The notes under the pieces: generated by a model | Told to the model about the DNA's origin: nothing | Seen by the model: only the letters and a program-made list of their open reading frames with translations | Database searches by the model: none | Assembly: GCA_964448095.1 (NCBI GenBank) | Contig: CAYUUT010000001.1 | Coordinates: 105,829 to 169,828, forward strand | Source: an uncultured Candidatus Saccharibacteria bacterium | Lineage (GTDB): Bacteria > Patescibacteriota > Saccharimonadia > Saccharimonadales > UBA10212 | DNA length: 64,000 bases | Reading direction: 5' to 3' | Shown here: positions 55,519 through 61,881 of the stretch, in pieces | Layout of the letters: each line of letters begins with the position of its first letter | Position numbering within the stretch: position 1 is the first letter of the stretch | Translations under genes and position numbers: made by a program

Positions 55519-56007
55519 TTACGAGCTAGCGGCTTTATCTAACGCTGCTTGAAGAGACTGCTCAAAGCCATAGCTGTCGCTGGTAGCTCCAGAGACAAAA
55601 TCGATATGCGCACTTTGTTTTTGCAGGGCTGTTTGCTTTAGGAGTGGCTCGGCCGCGGCTGCGATGGCACGCGAATTTCCCAAATCATTGGGCATCTGCA
55701 AGAAATTGATATCGGTTATTTTGCCACCGCTGATTACGGCCGCAACTTGGACGGTACCATAGGGCGTTTGAGCGGCAGAGCCTATATAGTTGCCGTCCTT
55801 GTAGCCTTGGCCTGAGGCAGCGTTACTTGAATTACTGGACGCCACGGTTGAGACTGCGCTGCCACCCTGATTAGTGGCTATGACTGCCGGCGTATTAGTT
55901 TTGGGACTACTTATTAGCAAAGCGCTGGTATTCCCGCTCTTATTAACGTAAAGCCCAAGGCCGCCTAAAATGGCTATAGTCATAACTACTAGGAGTGATC
56001 TTTTCAT
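55519..56007 (-). CDS. Secreted/membrane-anchored FMN-binding domain protein (FMN_bind, an ApbE substrate type)
   Basis: Signal anchor LLVVMTIAILGGLGL. YKDGNYIGSAAQTPYGTVQVAAVISGGKITDINF and a C-terminal DFVSGATSDS flavinylation motif. Confidence 0.7.
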   Translation of the reverse strand: MKRSLLVVMTIAILGGLGLYVNKSGNTSALLISSPKTNTPAVIATNQGGSAVSTVASSNSSNAASGQGYKDGNYIGSAAQTPYGTVQVAAVISGGKITDINFLQMPNDLGNSRAIAAAAEPLLKQTALQKQSAHIDFVSGATSDSYGFEQSLQAALDKAASS

Positions 56008-56114
56008 CTACCTAATTCTAGCAAGTTCTTGCTGAGATTTAACTTAGGCTAATGTAAGTTCAGTCTGCCGGAAAAAGCGTCGTCTAAGCTTCAGCCCGTT
56101 ATAATAAAGCTAGC

Positions 56115-57095
56115 ATGAGATTTATATTACTTTTGCTAGAAATTATTTTCCTGTTGAGCCTGTCGGCTATCTGCTCCGGTCTGAATGTATCCTTCACTTC
56201 GTTGGATATGGCCGATTTGGAGCGCAAGAGCAAATTGGGCAACAAGGGCGCTCAGAGGATTCTGGCTTTGCGGCGGAACAGCCACCTAACGCTGGCCAGT
56301 ATTCTAATGACCAATGTGGCAGTTATTTCGACGACTTCGCTGGTTCTGCATAGCTGGGTCAACAGCATCGCCGCCGGAATTATCAGCACGCTTCTGATTG
56401 TCGTCTTTGGCGAAGTTATACCTCAGGCCTTCTTCACTCGCTACGCCCTGGGCTTCACAGCCTTCTTCGCGCCATTCCTAAGGCTAATTACCGTCATCAC
56501 CTACCCTGTATCCAAGCCTCTGCAGCTGGTACTGGATAGACTCATCGGCCAGGAAAAGATGCAGCTTCAAAGCCGGGCCGAGTTAGGCTTGCTCATAACC
56601 CAGCACAGCGGACGGCACGGCAGCGAATTGGATGAGGACGAAATTGAAATTATCCGCGGCGCCCTGAGACTGAGCCAGCGGCGCGTCAAGGACATCATGA
56701 CGCCCATTGAGAAGGTTTATTGGCTGACACCTGACACCGTCATTGACGGCGTTAAAATCGACCAACTGAAGCTTAAGGGTCATAGCCGGATACCAATTTT
56801 CAATGGAGCCAAAACTAGAGCCTTCGGCGTCTTGATGATGAAGGACTTAGTGGATATAGATTTCGACGACGAAAAACATACGGCTAGTGATTTACCGCAA
56901 CGGCCGACTACGATGGTCGGCAGTCTGACGGCTCTGGATACCATGTTTCGTAAGTTCATCAGCGCCCACAGTCACTTGATGGCAGTTGAGCGCGATGATA
57001 AGATCGTCGGCATCATAACGATTGAGGACTTGCTGGAAGAGATTATCGGCCACGAGATTGAGGATGAGTCCGACCGCAGTCGCAGACTTAGCTAA
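56115..57095 (+). CDS. CNNM/CorC (HlyC/CorC) family protein: DUF21 membrane domain + CBS pair
   Basis: N-terminal 4-TM DUF21. CBS domains (IMTPIEKVYWL..., ...VGIITIEDLLEEIIG). Confidence 0.8.
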   Translation: MRFILLLLEIIFLLSLSAICSGLNVSFTSLDMADLERKSKLGNKGAQRILALRRNSHLTLASILMTNVAVISTTSLVLHSWVNSIAAGIISTLLIVVFGEVIPQAFFTRYALGFTAFFAPFLRLITVITYPVSKPLQLVLDRLIGQEKMQLQSRAELGLLITQHSGRHGSELDEDEIEIIRGALRLSQRRVKDIMTPIEKVYWLTPDTVIDGVKIDQLKLKGHSRIPIFNGAKTRAFGVLMMKDLVDIDFDDEKHTASDLPQRPTTMVGSLTALDTMFRKFISAHSHLMAVERDDKIVGIITIEDLLEEIIGHEIEDESDRSRRLS

Positions 57096-57141
57096 AGAAA
57101 CTTATTTCGTTCAGCTCAGGTGGTAAGAAGCCGTTCTCGTG

Positions 57142-57312
57142 CTAGAAATTGGCTTGCCATTTATAGCCTTTGTTGTAGCCCAGGTCTTTCATCAACTTGG
57201 TTGGGGCGTTGCGCAACGGATTGTAGCTCTTCGGCAGAAAATGCAGATAAACCAGGAAGGCCGTACTAATGCCGATAAAGAGCAGTATAAAAGCTCCTAG
57301 CAAAGGGTCCAT
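57142..57312 (-). pseudogene. 56-codon ORF: an N-terminal hydrophobic helix fused to a diverged copy of the RarA C-terminus ([20 protein letters not shown]); likely a displaced 3' remnant of rarA
   Basis: The translation [56 protein letters not shown] matches RarA residues encoded at about 60690-60830 ([20 protein letters not shown]) at 18 of 20 positions. Nucleotide identity is only ~73%. Same orientation as rarA. Confidence 0.4.
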
Positions 57313-57478
57313 GCTCAATGTACTACTCCAATCCTAGCCGCCCGCTTGTTTCATATCGCATACTTGTAATCTAGACGAGAAAGTTTAAAATGTTGTTTAT
57401 GATTCGTTTATTCTCCGCCAAAAACTATTACGAGGCTTCCTTAATCTGACGAGAAGCCAGCTTTTAATTTGCATGATG

Positions 57479-57510
57479 AAATCTGCCTTCTCGGGCAGAT
57501 TTTTTAATTT
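57479..57510 (+). terminator. Rho-independent terminator (9-bp stem AAATCTGCC/GGCAGATTT, 6-nt loop, then a T-tract)
   Basis: Canonical hairpin followed by a U-tract, about 390 nt downstream of the CNNM stop. May end a long 3' UTR or a short plus-strand transcript. Confidence 0.5.
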
Positions 57511-57554
57511 GTTCGAGAGCACCTAACCCTACTACGGAAAGTGAGGCACTGCGC

Positions 57555-57935
57555 GTGACCACTTTTAAGGCTCTCATCAAGAGGGCTAGAAAGTTCGCCT
57601 GGTACTACAACCGGGCGGTGGTACTGGGAACTCTCCAGCGTGACATGACGCCGCACATCGTCTTCGCGGATTTGCGTGAAGGCGATGTCATCGGCTTCGA
57701 GCTGCCGGGAACACTGGTAAGTGTGAGAGTGGTGGACACAGCCCTGCAGCTAGTGGTGCCGTGTAGGTGGCACTACAAGTCAGGCAAGATGCAGTTCCGC
57801 GGCCATGCCATTGCCGCTGGACGCCACACCACCTTTGGCAGCTCCCGCTGGGCTGGCAACTACATCACGCTAGCGCCGGCCCGGAGAATCCTACTCAATG
57901 GGAAGCCCATCCCTGAAGGCAGGTTGCTACGGTAG
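57555..57935 (+). CDS. Hypothetical basic 126-aa protein, GTG start, elevated GC (~58%, GC3 ~75%)
   Basis: A GTGAGG Shine-Dalgarno-like element upstream. No family recognised. Confidence 0.4.
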   Translation: MTTFKALIKRARKFAWYYNRAVVLGTLQRDMTPHIVFADLREGDVIGFELPGTLVSVRVVDTALQLVVPCRWHYKSGKMQFRGHAIAAGRHTTFGSSRWAGNYITLAPARRILLNGKPIPEGRLLR

Positions 57936-57943
57936 GGCAAATA

Positions 57944-57973
57944 GGGGCTGCGGTGGCACACCACCGCAGCCCC
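57944..57973. terminator. Perfect 13-bp GC hairpin (GGGGCTGCGGTGG-CACA-CCACCGCAGCCCC) with no U-tract; candidate bidirectional/I-shaped terminator
   Basis: Sits between the convergent 126-aa ORF and the methyltransferase gene. Confidence 0.45.
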
Positions 57974-58020
57974 TACTCAAACTGACCGCCCGCTTGGTTT
58001 TTCTCGGGTTTATAAGAGCC

Positions 58021-58698
58021 CTACTTGGGCAGGTTGGCGCGAGGAATCACGATAGTATCCATTTTATCGGGCCGGTCAGGGTCAAAATGCCTCGTTAGGG
58101 GCGGAAAGTAGCTATGGAACTCAATGTCATTATCAAAACAAACTGTTCTGGCGGCTTCCATGGTTTGAGGATCAGAGGTTACCAGAAACTTACCATTTTC
58201 ATCTAGGGCCGGCCCGACCTCGTGCAACAATCGTCCTATTCTGCTACCAAAATAGTCCGGGCCAAACATAAAGGCAGCCACTAAATCGAACCTTTTGCCT
58301 TTGCGATTCAATTGCCTTAAAGTCCATGCACCGTCGCCTATGTGGATATTCTCGGGCGGTAGGATGCCGCTTATAGCGATCTCTGCAGCGTGCTCCGGCT
58401 CTAATTCGGCCGCTTCTACACTACCGCCGTTCAGTGTCGCCAAGCGCCCCAATGCATAGGTGGCTCCGCCCGTGCCGGCGCCATATTCAAATATTCTTTT
58501 AGATGCCCGTAAATCAAGTTGCCCCTGTATCGCCATAACGTTGAGCGAATGTTGAGCTCTTACTGCGGCCAGCTGCTGCCAGGGGTGCAGTTCTGTGAAA
58601 TCAAGGTAAGCTTCTACGCATAAGCGCAAATCCCCGACTTCATGCGATGTTTTAGAAGTGCTCGCCATAATATATAAGTTTAATTGATAATTATACAA
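58021..58698 (-). CDS. Class I SAM-dependent methyltransferase (not an obvious DNA MTase; no DPPY/NPPY motif)
   Basis: Motif I IFEYGAGTGGATYAL. Motif II/III-like DLVAAFMFGPD. Confidence 0.6.
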   Translation of the reverse strand: MYNYQLNLYIMASTSKTSHEVGDLRLCVEAYLDFTELHPWQQLAAVRAQHSLNVMAIQGQLDLRASKRIFEYGAGTGGATYALGRLATLNGGSVEAAELEPEHAAEIAISGILPPENIHIGDGAWTLRQLNRKGKRFDLVAAFMFGPDYFGSRIGRLLHEVGPALDENGKFLVTSDPQTMEAARTVCFDNDIEFHSYFPPLTRHFDPDRPDKMDTIVIPRANLPK

Positions 58699-58789
58699 TA
58701 GTTTTTGATTTATGCAACGGAAACCGCCCGCCCCATACCATAAAGCTACGAGGTAAACTTATTTTGAGCGTTAGATATAAAATAAGGGT

Positions 58790-60031
58790 ATGGGGACCGA
58801 TTATCGGCGCAACCACTATGTTCCTGAGTGGTATCAAAAAAACTTTATCCCGCCCGATGGTTCGGGGAAGCTATTTTATTTAAGACTAAAGCCGAAGGAG
58901 TTCAGAGACTCAAAGGGAGGGATTCATCTTGAACCCGCCCTGCGCGAGTCTAGTCCAGGACAGTGCTTCTACCAAAAGGATCTTTATACCACGAGGTTTG
59001 GCGCAAATGTATCCCGAGATATTGAGAGGTACTTCTTCGGCCTGATGGATACAAATGGTCAAAAAGCAGCCAATCACTTCGCTAACTACGTTTTCCCTAA
59101 CTGGGATGGTAAGCCGGTTCAAGACCTCATAACTTACCTGAGTACCCAGAAACTAAGAACCCCCAAAGGATTAGACTGGTTAGCAAACACGCTGGGTACT
59201 ACAGACGGAAACCGGACCTTAATCGAGATGCAAAGATTCCAGGATGTTTTTTGTGCCACATGGGTAGAGTGTGTGTGGCAAATAGCAGACGCTGAAAGTT
59301 CCGATACTAAGTTCATTATTTCTGACCACCCCGTGACTATATACAATCGCGAATGCGGCCCACGGAATAAGAAGTGGTGTCGAGGCTCCAATGACCCTGA
59401 CATTCGCCTTCAAGGCTCGCATACTGTTTTTCCTCTCAGTCTGAATAAAGTCTTGATATTGACGAATATGTCTTGGGTGCGCAACCCATATCAATCAGCA
59501 GTTGGCGAACGTCCCAACCCGACTCTCTACCACAGTACCGTATTTGACTTCCACCGGTTACAAATTAATAGACGCCTGTCGGAGCAAGAAGTCAGAGAAA
59601 TTAATTTCGTTATTAAAAGTCGGGCTTATGACTACATAGCCGCTGGTAAAGAAGAGTGGCTGTACCCTGAGAAATTCATCACGAAATCAAATTGGAATGT
59701 TTACGGCGATGGTTTGCTATTTATGCCCGATCCTCGCTCATTCAATTATGGCGGTGAGGTATATGGAGGTAATAATAGTGGCCCGACCTTTGCAGTGGAT
59801 TCATATGGGCGAAAGCCTGGGGACCCAAATTTCGGAAAGGAAGATATCCCCCCGAACCAAAGCACTCTGCCACTTTATCGATTCCAGGGGGATTTTGCTC
59901 GCAAATTTGGCACACACCGACGAGGAGTAGCTATGGAGTTTGGGGAGCTTGAGGACGAGGTAGACACTGAAACCTACCACGAGTATCACCTTGGCTTGGG
60001 GAAGCAAAAGAAATCAAAAAACATAATTTAA
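58790..60031 (+). CDS. DUF4238-like protein (413 aa)
   Basis: The N-terminal RNHYVPEWYQKNF resembles the DUF4238 signature (HY[VI]PQFYL[KR]NF) as I recall it. Atypical codon usage (AGA, AGG, CTA, TTA). Confidence 0.5.
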   Translation: MGTDYRRNHYVPEWYQKNFIPPDGSGKLFYLRLKPKEFRDSKGGIHLEPALRESSPGQCFYQKDLYTTRFGANVSRDIERYFFGLMDTNGQKAANHFANYVFPNWDGKPVQDLITYLSTQKLRTPKGLDWLANTLGTTDGNRTLIEMQRFQDVFCATWVECVWQIADAESSDTKFIISDHPVTIYNRECGPRNKKWCRGSNDPDIRLQGSHTVFPLSLNKVLILTNMSWVRNPYQSAVGERPNPTLYHSTVFDFHRLQINRRLSEQEVREINFVIKSRAYDYIAAGKEEWLYPEKFITKSNWNVYGDGLLFMPDPRSFNYGGEVYGGNNSGPTFAVDSYGRKPGDPNFGKEDIPPNQSTLPLYRFQGDFARKFGTHRRGVAMEFGELEDEVDTETYHEYHLGLGKQKKSKNII

Positions 60032-60237
60032 TATTGGGTCCGGGCATCGGCTCAAACAGAAGACTGAGTGCAGCCAAAAAGATGTCGGCCAAACGTATGT
60101 TTGAGCGAAGCGAGGCCGGCTTGGCCCACTTTTTGGCAAGCGAAGTCGCTCTGCTTTGAACGCAGCCCGGCGGTTTGCCACACTTTGCCGTTCAAAGTGT
60201 GAAAATTTTAGGACTTTTGAAAAAAAGACCAGTAGCC

Positions 60238-60678
60238 TTATCGCCTGTTTGCAAAATTATCGAGTTTCTTGCCAATCACATACCCCAAAGCTGCTAGTGT
60301 GACTATAGGCCCGACAAGAATAGAAATCTCTGCTAGCTCCGCATGAGTGCTGAAATCAGCATTCTGGACTTCTCTCTGCGTAGGGACATATCCAACATAT
60401 TGTCGATCTATTCCGTAGTGGCCGTATCTATCAACCCCCATGACTCCAAGAATGATGCCGCCAATCATGCCACCGACACTGAGGACAAGGTCAGCTCCTT
60501 CAATCGGTTCTTCGTCGTCATTGCCCCATCTCCTGCCGCCTTCGCCGCCTCTGTCATTGCCATTATTGCCGCCGTTCCCACCGCCACCACCAAACTGTCT
60601 CTCAAACTCTGTCAAGTCTGTTAGTCTAATCTCTCCACCAGCGGGTCGCTCTAATGTAGCCGTCATCTTATCGAACAT
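60238..60678 (-). CDS. Glycine-rich membrane protein (146 aa)
   Basis: GGGGGNGGNNGNDRGGEGG low-complexity segment followed by 2-3 hydrophobic helices. Immediately downstream of rarA on the same strand. Confidence 0.45.
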   Translation of the reverse strand: MFDKMTATLERPAGGEIRLTDLTEFERQFGGGGGNGGNNGNDRGGEGGRRWGNDDEEPIEGADLVLSVGGMIGGIILGVMGVDRYGHYGIDRQYVGYVPTQREVQNADFSTHAELAEISILVGPIVTLAALGYVIGKKLDNFANRR

Positions 60679-60684
60679 TATTCA

Positions 60685-61881
60685 CTATTTCGCAAAAAAG
60701 TCTAGGTTCTGCAGTTCATCTGGCAAAAATCCTTTGGGGTGCTTAAACCCGGCCTCCCACTTTGTGCCTTTGCCGTAGCCTAAATCTTTCATAAGTTTGG
60801 TTGGCGCGTTACGCAGGTGAATCGGCACAGGCAAATCCGGGTATTGCCGAGCTGTGGTTTGCGCGGCACTCATGGCGCTAGCAACCTCGCGTGACTTAGG
60901 CGCTTTGGCCATCACAGTTGCGCAGTGAAACAGATTATATTGGCATTCTGGCATGCCAATGCGCTCCACCGCCAGGAACGTCGAAACAGCCAGGTTTAGC
61001 GCGGCCGGGGCGGCCATGCCAATATCTTCACTGGCAAAAACTACCATCCGCCGTGCAATAAACTTGGGGTCTTCGCCGGCCTGCAGCATCCGTGCCATAT
61101 AATAAAGCGCCGCCGTGGCGTCGCTGCCGCGCATCGATTTTATAAAGGCGCTGATGATGTTGTAGTGGTTTTCGCCGGCTTTGTCGTAACCCGGCACCCG
61201 TTTTTGGGCGGCGCTCTGCACAACTTCCGGCGTAATGGCGCCCCGCGTCAGCTGCAGCGCTAGCTCTAAATTGCTTAGCGCAATGCGGCCGTCGCCGCCG
61301 GAAACTTCTGCCAGCATGTCAACGCCGGCGGCTGGCAAGCGCTTAGCACTGAGCTTTTCGGCCTTGGCGGCGCGTTTAATAATCTTTACGATGTCAGCTT
61401 TGGTCAGTGGCTCCAGCACAACTACCCGGCTGCGCGACAAAAGAGGAGTGATTACTTCAAAGCTGGGATTCTCGGTTGTCGCGCCAATCAATGTAATGAG
61501 CCCGGACTCGACGTGCGGCAAAAAAGCGTCCTGCTGGGCTTTATTGAAACGGTGGATTTCATCAACAAACAGGACGGTTTGAGTCGGAGCCTTGGTGGTA
61601 TTACCCTGCTGGTTGGCCCGGGCGCGCTCAACAACTTTAGTAACATCGGCTTTACCAGCGGTTACGGCAGAAATTTCTACAAAGTCGGCCTCTAGCTCAT
61701 TAGCGATAATCCGCGCCAATGTGGTTTTGCCACTGCCCGGCGGCCCCCAAAAAATCAAAGAAAACGGCTGACCGGCTTTAACCAGCTGGCTAATCATTTT
61801 ACCTTCGCCCAAGATGTGTTCTTGGCCAACCACCTCCGACAATTTACGCGGGCGCATGCGCTCCGCTAACGGCTGCTCCAT
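60685..61881 (-). CDS. rarA: Replication-associated recombination protein A (RarA/MgsA AAA+ ATPase)
   Basis: Walker [10 protein letters not shown], Walker [11 protein letters not shown] and the C-terminal [17 protein letters not shown]. The track start at 62016 would overlap gnd by 116 nt; the ATG at 61881 ([11 protein letters not shown]) is the likely start. Confidence 0.85.

What the first reader, a model, noticed from the sequence alone, without database searches (positions are those of the whole stretch)
58790..60031. DUF4238-like gene in the island: a homolog of a family I recall as a single-gene anti-phage system (Rst_DUF4238)
Seen: the N-terminus RNHYVPEWYQKNFIPPDG matches what I recall of the DUF4238 (PF14022) signature. 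Established knowledge, from memory: a DUF4238 protein from P2/P4 prophage hotspots was shown to confer phage resistance as a single gene, and defense-system catalogues list it as Rst_DUF4238. Inference: this may be a phage-defense gene in a reduced-genome, possibly episymbiotic bacterium. At 413 aa it is also longer than typical DUF4238 proteins, with a C-terminal extension (YGGNNSGPTFAVDSYGRK...) of unknown function. It is flanked by a methyltransferase and a small basic GC-rich ORF that could be functionally linked.
Basis: partly seen in the sequence, partly recalled or inferred. Interest (0 to 1): 0.6.

Follow-up and report, generated by a model that had tools for sequence, protein, structure and literature searches.

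The report
Mobile DUF4238 gene, probable phage defence
A Saccharibacteria genome carries, inside a 3.5-kb piece of foreign DNA inserted into the end of its rarA gene, a solitary gene from the DUF4238 family; one distant member of that family is known to block phage T7, so this gene is a reasonable but unproven anti-phage candidate whose biochemistry is unknown.

Summary
ORF 58790-60031(+) encodes 413 aa and matches Pfam PF14022/DUF4238 over the whole model (E=3.6e-14, 53 bits, cutoff 27). The relationship is remote, however: 27% identity over 60 aa, hhalign E=5e-5. PADLOC's DUF4238 model scores the validated protein at 718 bits and misses this one. The "C-terminal extension" is not peculiar. 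It is conserved in a ~410-aa subfamily (52-67% identity across Patescibacteria, Verrucomicrobia, Planctomycetes and Chloroflexota). The gene lies in a ~3.5-kb insertion that duplicated the last 42 codons of rarA. The closest relative has an empty site and the next has unrelated cargo. The neighbouring methyltransferase-fold gene and the basic ORF are near-orphans, absent from 28 other DUF4238 loci, so they are not partners. Homologs sit alone among integrases, recombinases, conjugation genes, DISARM, Old and Hachiman-like genes. The fold has no match among solved PDB structures; the only viral fold match is a DUF4238 protein of P2-family phage Smp131. Verdict: horizontally acquired, single-gene, probable defence or MGE-conflict enzyme; a new variant of a known kind; moderate interest.

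The parts
58790..60031 (+). DUF4238-family gene, 413 aa (long, ~410-aa subfamily)
   Evidence: ORF; PF14022 E=3.6e-14; 1701 homologs; AF2 model with pLDDT 72 and pTM 0.78
58808..59650 (+). DUF4238 core domain (aa 7-287), carrying the family-wide invariant residues H9, R123-T124, D179-x-P181 and N272, with E79, D87 and K126 nearly invariant
   Evidence: Pfam envelope; alignment A6 across three architectures, including the validated E. coli protein; hhalign
59651..60028 (+). C-terminal module (aa 288-413) with motifs WLYP, KS.W, MPDPR, D.YGR.P, F.G.FA..FG..RRG and H.YHL. Residues up to ~350 are shared with the ~345-aa and ~800-aa clades. The last ~60 aa are specific to the ~410-aa subfamily.
   Evidence: Invariant columns in A1; phmmer against 1.84 billion representatives finds 98 clusters, at positions 286-405 in all full-length hits; no Pfam hit on its own; extent of the viral and plasmid matches
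57217..60684 (.). Inserted ~3.5-kb island between the complete rarA and the displaced remnant of its 3' end. It holds orf126, the MTase-like gene, the DUF4238 gene and orf146, and has no integrase or transposase.
   Evidence: Direct repeat D1; alignment A2; empty site in L015 and different cargo in L014; both junctions present in independent assemblies L001, L002 and L003
57088..57216 (-). Remnant of the last 42 codons of rarA. It is in frame with one internal TAG, and its stop overlaps the convergent CNNM stop codon.
   Evidence: MgsA_C hit on ORF 57142..57318; alignment and translation
60685..60815 (-). 3' end of the intact rarA/mgsA gene (whole gene 60685..61881), the second copy of the repeat, 65% identical to the remnant over 127 nt
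58021..58698 (-). Class I SAM-methyltransferase-fold protein (probable start at 58668, 215 aa), divergent from the DUF4238 gene; a near-orphan and not a conserved partner
   Evidence: No Pfam, NCBIfam or PHROG hit; weak PADLOC mad2 hit at 1.3e-6; 3 homologs only; AF2 pLDDT 74; 609 PDB fold hits, best RsmG, TrmM, fibrillarin, Trm14 and BioC
57555..57935 (+). orf126: small, basic (pI 11.1), GC-rich (59%) ORF of unknown function, found only in the same species
   Evidence: no family hit
60238..60678 (-). orf146: Gly-rich N-terminus plus two hydrophobic segments; starts 6 nt after the rarA stop; found only in the same species
   Evidence: no family hit
57142..57318 (-). 58-aa ORF created at the island's edge: one hydrophobic helix fused in frame to 24 aa of the RarA remnant. 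Whether it is expressed is unknown.
57942..57975 (.). Perfect 15-nt inverted repeat (4-nt loop) between the convergent orf126 and MTase-like genes; likely a bidirectional terminator
   Evidence: the repeat finder pair I5

Best explanation
The gene encodes an intact member of a conserved ~410-aa subfamily of the DUF4238 family. The Saccharimonadales host acquired it horizontally as cargo of a ~3.5-kb insertion into the 3' end of rarA. It works alone, with no conserved partner gene. Its most likely role is a single-protein anti-phage or anti-mobile-element immunity factor, analogous to the validated E. coli Rst_DUF4238. The inferred mechanism is enzymatic. The N-terminal DUF4238 core carries a polar constellation conserved family-wide (His9, Glu79, Arg123-Thr124, Asp179-His180, Asn272) that looks like an active site. 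The C-terminal module, which differs between family architectures (absent in the 310-aa Rst type, ~125 aa here, SEC-C plus ~420 aa in plasmid forms), would be the regulatory or target-sensing part. Shown: family membership, subfamily conservation, solitary organisation, insertion in a variable site, and recurrent MGE or defence-island neighbourhoods of homologs. Inferred: the defence role, the catalytic nature of the core, and the sensor role of the C-terminus. The substrate and the trigger are unknown.
For: Family: PF14022 over the full model. hhalign to the validated protein gives E=4.9e-5 with shared motifs H-x-[VL]..Y-x-K-x-F, R-T-P, S-D-[HN]-P-V and F-P-x-S. The only significant viral fold match is the DUF4238 protein gp44 of the Peduoviridae (P2-family) phage Smp131, located next to its integrase. 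Precedent: one DUF4238 protein alone gives strong T7 resistance (PMC9122126). Intactness: every subfamily-invariant column is present, and the protein is 100% identical in three independent assemblies. Acquired or variable: duplicated rarA 3' end; the closest relative L015 has ~40 bp at this site and L014 has 4.3 kb of unrelated genes; no DUF4238 lies within 10 kb of rarA in 26 Saccharibacteria loci; the gene is AT-shifted (z=-1.7) with the 5th most atypical codon usage of 52 genes. Solitary: neighbours in 12 contexts are mutually unrelated. Neighbourhoods: integrases, serine recombinases, an IS3 transposase, a terminase or TrwB/TraG in 7 of 12 contexts. A DISARM trio (DrmA 7e-226, DrmB 1e-79, DrmMII 3e-110) and a PIN TA pair flank the 60%-identical homolog. 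An Old nuclease and a caspase plus HamB-like helicase lie near another homolog. PADLOC models hit at E<=1e-8: 174 for 138 DUF4238 neighbours against 9 for 130 rarA neighbours. About 39%-identical relatives sit on 13 large plasmids, 7 of them conjugative.
Against: There is no experimental evidence for this subfamily. It is very distant from the one validated protein and is not detected by PADLOC's DUF4238 model. The 174-versus-9 contrast counts redundant models (many MTase_II and Drm profiles) from a few loci, so the difference per protein is much smaller. The sample is 12 loci and the control is not taxon-matched. Some homologs sit among housekeeping genes with no MGE or defence marker nearby (after ftsZ; between def and PNPOx). 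52-67% identity across phyla with ~100 invariant columns is unusually conservative for a defence gene. No fold or sequence match to any characterised enzyme supports a specific chemistry. The island in the window contains no recognisable defence gene or recombinase.
Confidence: 0.5

Rival explanations
1. It is cargo that serves the mobile element and not host immunity. Examples are exclusion of competing elements, anti-defence, or element maintenance or addiction, and its presence here is a leftover of a decayed element.
For: Homologs lie inside or next to integrative, conjugative or prophage DNA: integrases, serine recombinases, TrwB/TraG, a terminase and ParB-MTases. Relatives sit on conjugative plasmids between tra and bet/exo genes and next to the integrase of phage Smp131. 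The window island has no recombinase left.
Against: The one tested family member protects the cell against an unrelated lytic phage (PMC9122126). In practice inter-MGE exclusion and host defence overlap, so this is partly the same hypothesis. The gene is intact and identical across three samples, which suggests it is maintained in the host.
Confidence: 0.22
2. It is the restriction-like half of a two-gene modification/restriction module with the divergently transcribed methyltransferase-fold gene 58021..58698(-).
For: The two genes are divergent and share a 91-bp intergenic region. The MTase-like protein has a weak PADLOC mad2 hit (1.3e-6). DNA methyltransferases are near homologs in 3 other contexts (L104 directly upstream and divergent; L109; L008).
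Against: The MTase-like protein has only 3 relatives in 5.8 billion proteins and is absent from all 28 other DUF4238 loci. Its best fold matches are rRNA, tRNA and small-molecule MTases, and I see no (D/N/S)PP(Y/F) motif in its sequence. The nearby MTases in other loci belong to unrelated classes (ParB-N6/N4, C5/DrmMII), and 8 of 12 contexts have none. The validated Rst_DUF4238 works without any MTase.
Confidence: 0.06
3. It is an ordinary housekeeping or metabolic enzyme of unknown function that happens to lie near a rearranged region.
For: Sequence conservation across phyla is very high. Some homologs are embedded among core genes: ftsZ, def, glycolysis and purine genes.
Against: It is absent at this site from the closest relatives and lies inside an insertion scar. 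The genomic context differs in each of the 12 loci. It occurs on plasmids and viral contigs. Its phyletic spread is patchy, with identities that do not track phylogeny (52-67% between Patescibacteria, Verrucomicrobia and Planctomycetes).
Confidence: 0.07
4. It is itself the mobility enzyme of a minimal selfish element (a novel transposase or homing-type gene), which would explain solitary insertions without an integrase.
For: There are solitary single-gene occurrences between core genes. The window island lacks a recombinase. A 22-nt inverted repeat (77% complementary) brackets the gene at 58690-58711 and 60011-60032.
Against: The inverted repeat is AT-rich, imperfect and of chance quality. 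In L004 the downstream gene abuts the stop codon, leaving no room for a terminal repeat. The window insertion is 3.5 kb with three other genes and is bounded by a rarA duplication, not by repeats flanking the gene. Many homologs sit next to conventional recombinases. There is no similarity to any transposase or nuclease fold.
Confidence: 0.04

Closest known systems
Rst_DUF4238 (PADLOC 'DUF4238-Pers'): 310-aa protein from the P2-prophage hotspot of E. coli TA007, plasmid pFR101 (Rousset et al. 2022, PMC9122126)
   Same: Same Pfam family over the whole domain. Shared motifs: N-terminal His motif, R-T-P, S-D-[HN]-P-V and F-P-x-S. Single-gene organisation. Carried in small variable insertions or MGEs.
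   Different: Only ~21-27% identity. Not detected by the PADLOC model. About 100 aa longer, with a conserved C-terminal module the E. coli protein lacks. The host is a Saccharibacteria chromosome and not an enterobacterial P2 prophage. No experimental test has been done.
Stenotrophomonas phage Smp131 gp44 (YP_009008399.1 / V9IQH5), a DUF4238 protein of a Peduoviridae (P2-family) temperate phage
   Same: The only significant structural match in BFVD (Foldseek E=5.1e-5, probability 1.0, TM 0.51 on the target). A solitary cargo gene next to the integrase.
   Different: 298 aa and 12% identity. It lacks the C-terminal module. Function untested.
~800-aa DUF4238-SEC-C proteins of large proteobacterial plasmids (e.g. 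Klebsiella WP_045326765.1, Aeromonas pAsa4b WP_172686283.1) and ~345-aa relatives on IMG/VR viral contigs
   Same: 37-42% identity over residues ~6-354, which covers the DUF4238 core plus the first half of the C-terminal module. MGE-borne.
   Different: After residue ~350 they continue into a SEC-C zinc motif and ~420 aa of unknown sequence, or they stop. They lack the F.G.FA..FG..RRG / H.YHL tail of the ~410-aa subfamily. Uncharacterised.

Membership tests
Pfam PF14022 (DUF4238) | Score above the curated gathering threshold of the family HMM | tested here: met
   53.3 bits against a cutoff of 27, E=3.6e-14
Pfam PF14022 (DUF4238) | Match covers the whole domain and not a fragment | tested here: met
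   Residues 7-287 cover profile positions 1-279 of 281. The validated E. coli protein matches the same span, 2-279.
Pfam PF14022 (DUF4238) | Family-wide conserved motifs (N-terminal H-[YF]-[VL], R-T-P, S-D-[HN]-P-V, F-P-x-S) | tested here: met
   H9, R123-T124, D179-x-P181 and P215 are aligned and conserved in A6 across three architectures and in the hhalign alignment.
Pfam PF14022 (DUF4238) | Shared three-dimensional fold with other family members | tested here: met
   The AF2 model matches the predicted structure of Smp131 DUF4238 gp44 (Foldseek E=5.1e-5, probability 1.0). Both are predicted models and the query has pLDDT 72.
Rst_DUF4238 anti-phage system (defence catalogues) | Hit to the catalogue's own protein model (PADLOC PDLC03000 DUF4238-Pers) | tested here: not met
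   No hit at E<=1. In the positive control the validated protein scores 718 bits, E=2.5e-217. The model is evidently narrow.
Rst_DUF4238 anti-phage system (defence catalogues) | Hit to the DefenseFinder Rst_DUF4238 model | not testable with these tools
   DefenseFinder models are not among the libraries offered. From its name, the PADLOC model appears to derive from the same custom profile, so a miss is expected; that is an inference.
Rst_DUF4238 anti-phage system (defence catalogues) | Single-gene system with no obligatory partner | tested here: met
   No neighbour is shared among 12 subfamily contexts or 28 DUF4238 loci.
Rst_DUF4238 anti-phage system (defence catalogues) | Located in a variable hotspot, MGE or defence island | tested here: met
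   Insertion with a duplicated rarA 3' end; empty or different site in the closest relatives. Homologs lie beside DISARM, Old, integrases and conjugation genes.
Rst_DUF4238 anti-phage system (defence catalogues) | Confers resistance to phage infection when expressed | not testable with these tools
   This needs an experiment. It has been shown only for the E. coli TA007 protein against T7 (PMC9122126).
Rst_DUF4238 anti-phage system (defence catalogues) | ~300-aa single-domain architecture of the validated protein | tested here: not met
   413 aa with a conserved additional C-terminal module, aa 288-413.
Restriction-modification-like two-gene module with the adjacent methyltransferase | Conserved co-occurrence of the methyltransferase with the putative effector, and DNA-methyltransferase character | tested here: not met
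   The MTase-like gene is absent from 28 other DUF4238 loci and has 3 homologs in all. Its nearest folds are RNA and small-molecule MTases.
Integrative element inserted at the 3' end of a gene | Duplicated target-gene 3' end flanking the insert | tested here: met
   127-nt repeat covering the last 42 codons of rarA on both sides.
Integrative element inserted at the 3' end of a gene | Element-encoded integrase or recombinase and an exact att core repeat | tested here: not met
   No recombinase-like ORF or Pfam hit in 57217-60684. The repeats are 65% identical, and by my reading of the alignment they share no long exact core.

The most novel reading that the evidence does not exclude
The ~410-aa 'long' DUF4238 proteins are a distinct single-protein immune effector that current defence catalogues do not detect and whose fold is absent from the PDB. 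They are spread by horizontal transfer across Patescibacteria and several other phyla. In that case this gene would be one of very few defence genes identifiable in Saccharibacteria, and its invariant His/Arg/Asp core would define a new catalytic mechanism shared with Rst_DUF4238.
Probability: 0.35. Interest if true: 0.6.

Novelty: new variant of a known kind. Interest (0 to 1): 0.35.

Why it matters
Rst_DUF4238 is one of the few validated anti-phage systems that still cannot be assigned to any known domain family or mechanism (bioRxiv 10.1101/2024.10.26.620412). The long subfamily described here is highly conserved and has more than 1,700 detectable homologs. Comparing it with the 310-aa and ~800-aa forms reduces the family to a handful of invariant polar residues (H9, R123-T124, D179, N272), which are direct targets for mutagenesis in the tractable E. 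coli protein. It also shows that the narrow catalogue model misses most of the family, so DUF4238-type genes are probably under-counted, notably in Patescibacteria. Very few defence systems have been identified in that group, yet patescibacterial defence genes have been shown to function in E. coli (PMC12366544). As a side result, the locus documents a variable insertion site downstream of rarA in Saccharimonadales.

Tried and rejected
2. NCBIfam and PHROGs gave no usable hit for any island protein.
3. Conserved partner. The ~230-260-aa ORFs directly upstream in L105, L108, L109 and L010 looked like a recurrent partner, but they are unrelated to one another and to the window's MTase-like gene.
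4. IS or homing-element idea. I rejected the 22-nt, 77% inverted repeat around the gene as a chance match; L004 leaves no room for terminal repeats.
5. Which rarA 3' copy is ancestral. Both copies are ~70% identical to relatives whose rarA is itself only 74% identical, so this is unresolved.
6. Small RNA or tRNA att site in the island. There are no Rfam hits at E<=1 in 57000-60800 and no tRNA in the whole window.
7. Domain fusions as a functional clue. P0136 (DNA_pol_A fragment plus DUF4238) is probably a gene-call artefact. The plasmid proteins' PADLOC hits to E2 and PDC-S12 come only from the SEC-C zinc motif.
8. tblastn against GenBank phages found no hit.
9. Whether TdgA, LdgA or DdgA of PMC12366544 belong to this family could not be checked, because no sequences or supplements are held.
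10. I ran no further search on orf126 or orf146, because the answer would not change the verdict.
Full report
OBSERVATION. The ORF is at 58790..60031 on the + strand and encodes 413 aa. It begins MGTDYRRNHYVPEWYQKNFIPPDG and contains the quoted C-terminal string. It matches Pfam PF14022 (DUF4238) at E=3.6e-14 and 53.3 bits (gathering cutoff 27). Residues 7-287 cover profile positions 1-279 of 281. A search of 5.8 billion proteins found 1701 homologs at E<=1e-3, so this is a real gene.

RELATION TO THE KNOWN DEFENCE GENE. Rousset et al. [quoted passage not shown] I took that 310-aa sequence from their Table S2 and compared it directly. BLASTP finds 27% identity over 60 aa around the SDHP/SDNP motif (E=0.001). 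Profile-sequence hhalign gives 68% probability and E=4.9e-5 over 193 columns. Both proteins match PF14022 end to end. PADLOC does hold a model for this system (PDLC03000, DUF4238-Pers). It scores the validated protein at 718 bits but gives nothing for the window protein at E<=1. The two are therefore homologous at the Pfam-family level, but the window protein is not a member of the narrowly defined catalogue system.

A CONSERVED LONG SUBFAMILY. The best 120 homologs are all 404-443 aa long, cover 97-100% of the query and are 52-67% identical. Source names include Woesebacteria, Minisyncoccales, Patescibacteria, Verrucomicrobiae, Planctomycetes and Limnocylindria. In a 31-sequence alignment about 100 columns are invariant, and these run through the C-terminal third: WLYP, KS.W, MPDPR, D.YGR.P, F.G.FA..FG..RRG and H.YHL. 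A phmmer search with residues 288-413 alone against 1.84 billion cluster representatives found 98 clusters. In all full-length hits the match lies at ~286-405, and most shorter hits look like fragments. The 'extension' is thus a fixed part of this subfamily and not a fusion peculiar to this genome.

More distant relatives (34-42% identity, residues ~6-350) occur on 10 IMG/VR viral contigs and on 13 large plasmids of Klebsiella, Aeromonas, Vibrio, Sinorhizobium and others. The plasmid genes encode ~800-aa proteins that continue into a SEC-C zinc motif and ~420 aa of unknown sequence. The family therefore has at least three architectures built on one core. An alignment across all three leaves H9, F19, R123, T124, D179, P181, P203 and N272 invariant, with E79, D87, K126 and H180 nearly so.

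THE LOCUS IS AN INSERTION. The small ORF 57142..57318(-) matches the C-terminus of MgsA/RarA. A 104-nt direct repeat links 57112-57215 with 60712-60815, inside the 3' end of the complete rarA at 60685..61881(-). The alignment shows that 57088-57216(-) is a copy of the last 42 rarA codons. It is still in frame, with one TAG, and its stop codon overlaps the stop of the convergent CNNM gene. About 3.5 kb (57217-60684) therefore separates a complete rarA from a displaced copy of its own end.

Mapping the window's genes onto relatives' rarA loci gave three different states. In L015 (RarA 82% identical) the FMN_bind gene starts ~40 bp after rarA. In L014 (81%) the same interval holds 4.3 kb of unrelated genes: an RRM protein, and VOC-like, DUF541-like and topoisomerase-IB-like proteins. 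None of 26 Saccharibacteria loci has a DUF4238 gene within 10 kb of rarA.

Both junctions appear in independent assemblies from three samples, with a 100% identical protein, so the arrangement is not a misassembly. The island is compositionally mixed: the DUF4238 gene has GC 46.3% (z=-1.7) and the 5th most atypical codon usage of 52 genes, while orf126 has GC 59% (z=+2.6). No integrase or transposase lies in the island, and the repeats are only 65% identical. The mode of insertion is therefore unresolved: either a decayed integrative element or homology-facilitated illegitimate recombination. Relatives are too diverged to tell which copy is ancestral.

NEIGHBOURS ARE NOT PARTNERS. The divergent 215/225-aa gene has no Pfam, NCBIfam or PHROG hit, a weak PADLOC mad2 hit and only three relatives in the large database. 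Its AF2 model (pLDDT 74) has 609 PDB matches, all class I SAM methyltransferases. The best are RsmG/GidB, TrmM, fibrillarin, Trm14 and BioC, not R-M DNA methyltransferases. orf126 (pI 11.1) and orf146 (Gly-rich, two hydrophobic segments) have no family hits. None of the three occurs in any of the 28 other DUF4238-bearing loci fetched, only in same-species contigs.

CONTEXTS OF HOMOLOGS. Eleven further contexts of subfamily members were examined. The gene always stands alone, and its immediate neighbours are mutually unrelated. Seven of the twelve contexts have MGE hallmark genes within 7 kb: tyrosine integrases, large serine recombinases, an IS3 transposase, a terminase and TrwB/TraG. The 60%-identical P0012 lies between a PIN toxin-antitoxin pair and a DISARM-like trio (DrmMII 3e-110, DrmB 1e-79, DrmA 7e-226). 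P0067 lies between a caspase plus HamB-like helicase fusion and an Old nuclease (1.4e-49). P0101 lies among OLD-like, PDDEXK, Ymh, TraG and recombinase genes. L104 and L109 have ParB-N6/N4 methyltransferases.

Bundled PADLOC scans at E<=1e-8 hit 174 models for 138 DUF4238 neighbours, against 9 mostly generic ATPase or regulator models for 130 rarA neighbours. This contrast overstates the case, because many of the 174 are redundant MTase_II and Drm models from a few loci, and the control is not taxon-matched. Two homologs sit among core genes with nothing suggestive nearby.

MECHANISM. No biochemical activity is known for any DUF4238 protein. [quoted passage not shown] My best-supported reading is a stand-alone immunity enzyme. 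The conserved core, with its invariant His, Arg-Thr, Asp-(His/Asn) and Asn plus a near-invariant Glu, Asp and Lys, would be the catalytic part. The variable C-terminal portion would be the regulatory or sensing part. Only the conservation pattern and the architecture are shown. Catalysis, substrate, trigger and outcome (direct interference or abortive infection) are inference. I put about 0.5 on an anti-phage or anti-MGE role and much less on any specific chemistry.

RIVALS. The main rival is an MGE-serving function such as exclusion, maintenance or anti-defence, which overlaps with the main reading (0.22). The others are less likely: an R-M-like pair with the methyltransferase (0.06), a housekeeping enzyme (0.07) and a self-mobile element (0.04).

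NOVELTY AND VERDICT. Databases already label the protein 'DUF4238 domain-containing', so the family assignment is not new. What this work adds is fourfold. The gene belongs to a distinct, strongly conserved long subfamily that the defence-catalogue model misses. It is a solitary gene that recurs in MGE and defence-island settings. Here it lies in a demonstrable insertion in a Saccharibacteria chromosome. Cross-architecture comparison pins down candidate catalytic residues. I class it as a new variant of a known kind, of moderate interest (0.35). The interest would rise if the subfamily is shown to defend, because few defence genes are known in Patescibacteria and some patescibacterial defence genes work in E. 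coli (PMC12366544).

Noticed in passing
window 56007-60815; L014:11197-15515; L015:4408-4449: The interval between rarA and the FMN_bind/ApbE/NQR-like cluster is a variable spot in Saccharimonadales. It is ~40 bp in L015. In L014 it is 4.3 kb with RRM, VOC-like, DUF541-like and topoisomerase-IB-like ORFs. In the window it holds CNNM plus the 3.5-kb island. CNNM lies on the other side of rarA in L017 and L041.
   Followed up: partly
window 57142-57318 (-): A 58-aa ORF at the island edge fuses a hydrophobic helix (MSMDPLLGAFILLFIGISTAFLVYL) in frame to 24 residues of the RarA remnant. A gene caller also calls it in an independent assembly (L001). Expression and function are unknown.
   Followed up: no
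window 57319-57554, hairpin 57478-57503: A 236-nt non-coding stretch contains a promoter-like site (57364-57391) about 100 nt upstream of a strong 11-bp hairpin followed by a T run. It could be a small transcript or simply a terminator. There is no Rfam match at E<=1.
   Followed up: partly
window 57942-57975: A perfect 15-nt inverted repeat with a 4-nt loop lies between the convergent orf126 and methyltransferase-like genes. It is probably a bidirectional terminator.
   Followed up: no
window 60238-60678 (-): orf146 starts 6 nt after the rarA stop, so it is probably co-transcribed. It has a Gly/Asn-rich acidic N-terminus and two hydrophobic segments, and no homolog outside this species among the loci fetched.
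   Followed up: partly
L110:7989-10370; L111:7944-10367: Large plasmids of Klebsiella pneumoniae and Aeromonas salmonicida (pAsa4b) encode ~800-aa proteins made of DUF4238, a SEC-C zinc motif and ~420 aa of unknown sequence. These are uncharacterised relatives in cultivable hosts, which makes them attractive for experiments.
   Followed up: partly
L008:5107-13233: A DISARM-like trio (DrmMII, DrmB, DrmA) and a DUF6364/PIN toxin-antitoxin pair flank the 60%-identical homolog P0012, on a contig named Verrucomicrobiae by its source.
   Followed up: partly
L105:2564-5653: A 1030-aa protein fuses a Peptidase_C14 (caspase) domain to a Hachiman HamB-like DEAD helicase. It sits next to the homolog P0067 and an Old-family nuclease on a contig that also carries a TrwB coupling-protein gene.
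   Followed up: no
L013:1062-5720 (-): A 1552-aa protein with no Pfam or PADLOC hit lies directly upstream of the homolog P0095 and next to a tyrosine integrase. It may be an uncharacterised MGE or defence gene.
   Followed up: no
protein P0136 (660 aa): A DNA_pol_A fragment joined to a DUF4238 protein. It is most likely a gene-calling or assembly artefact and not a true fusion.
   Followed up: partly
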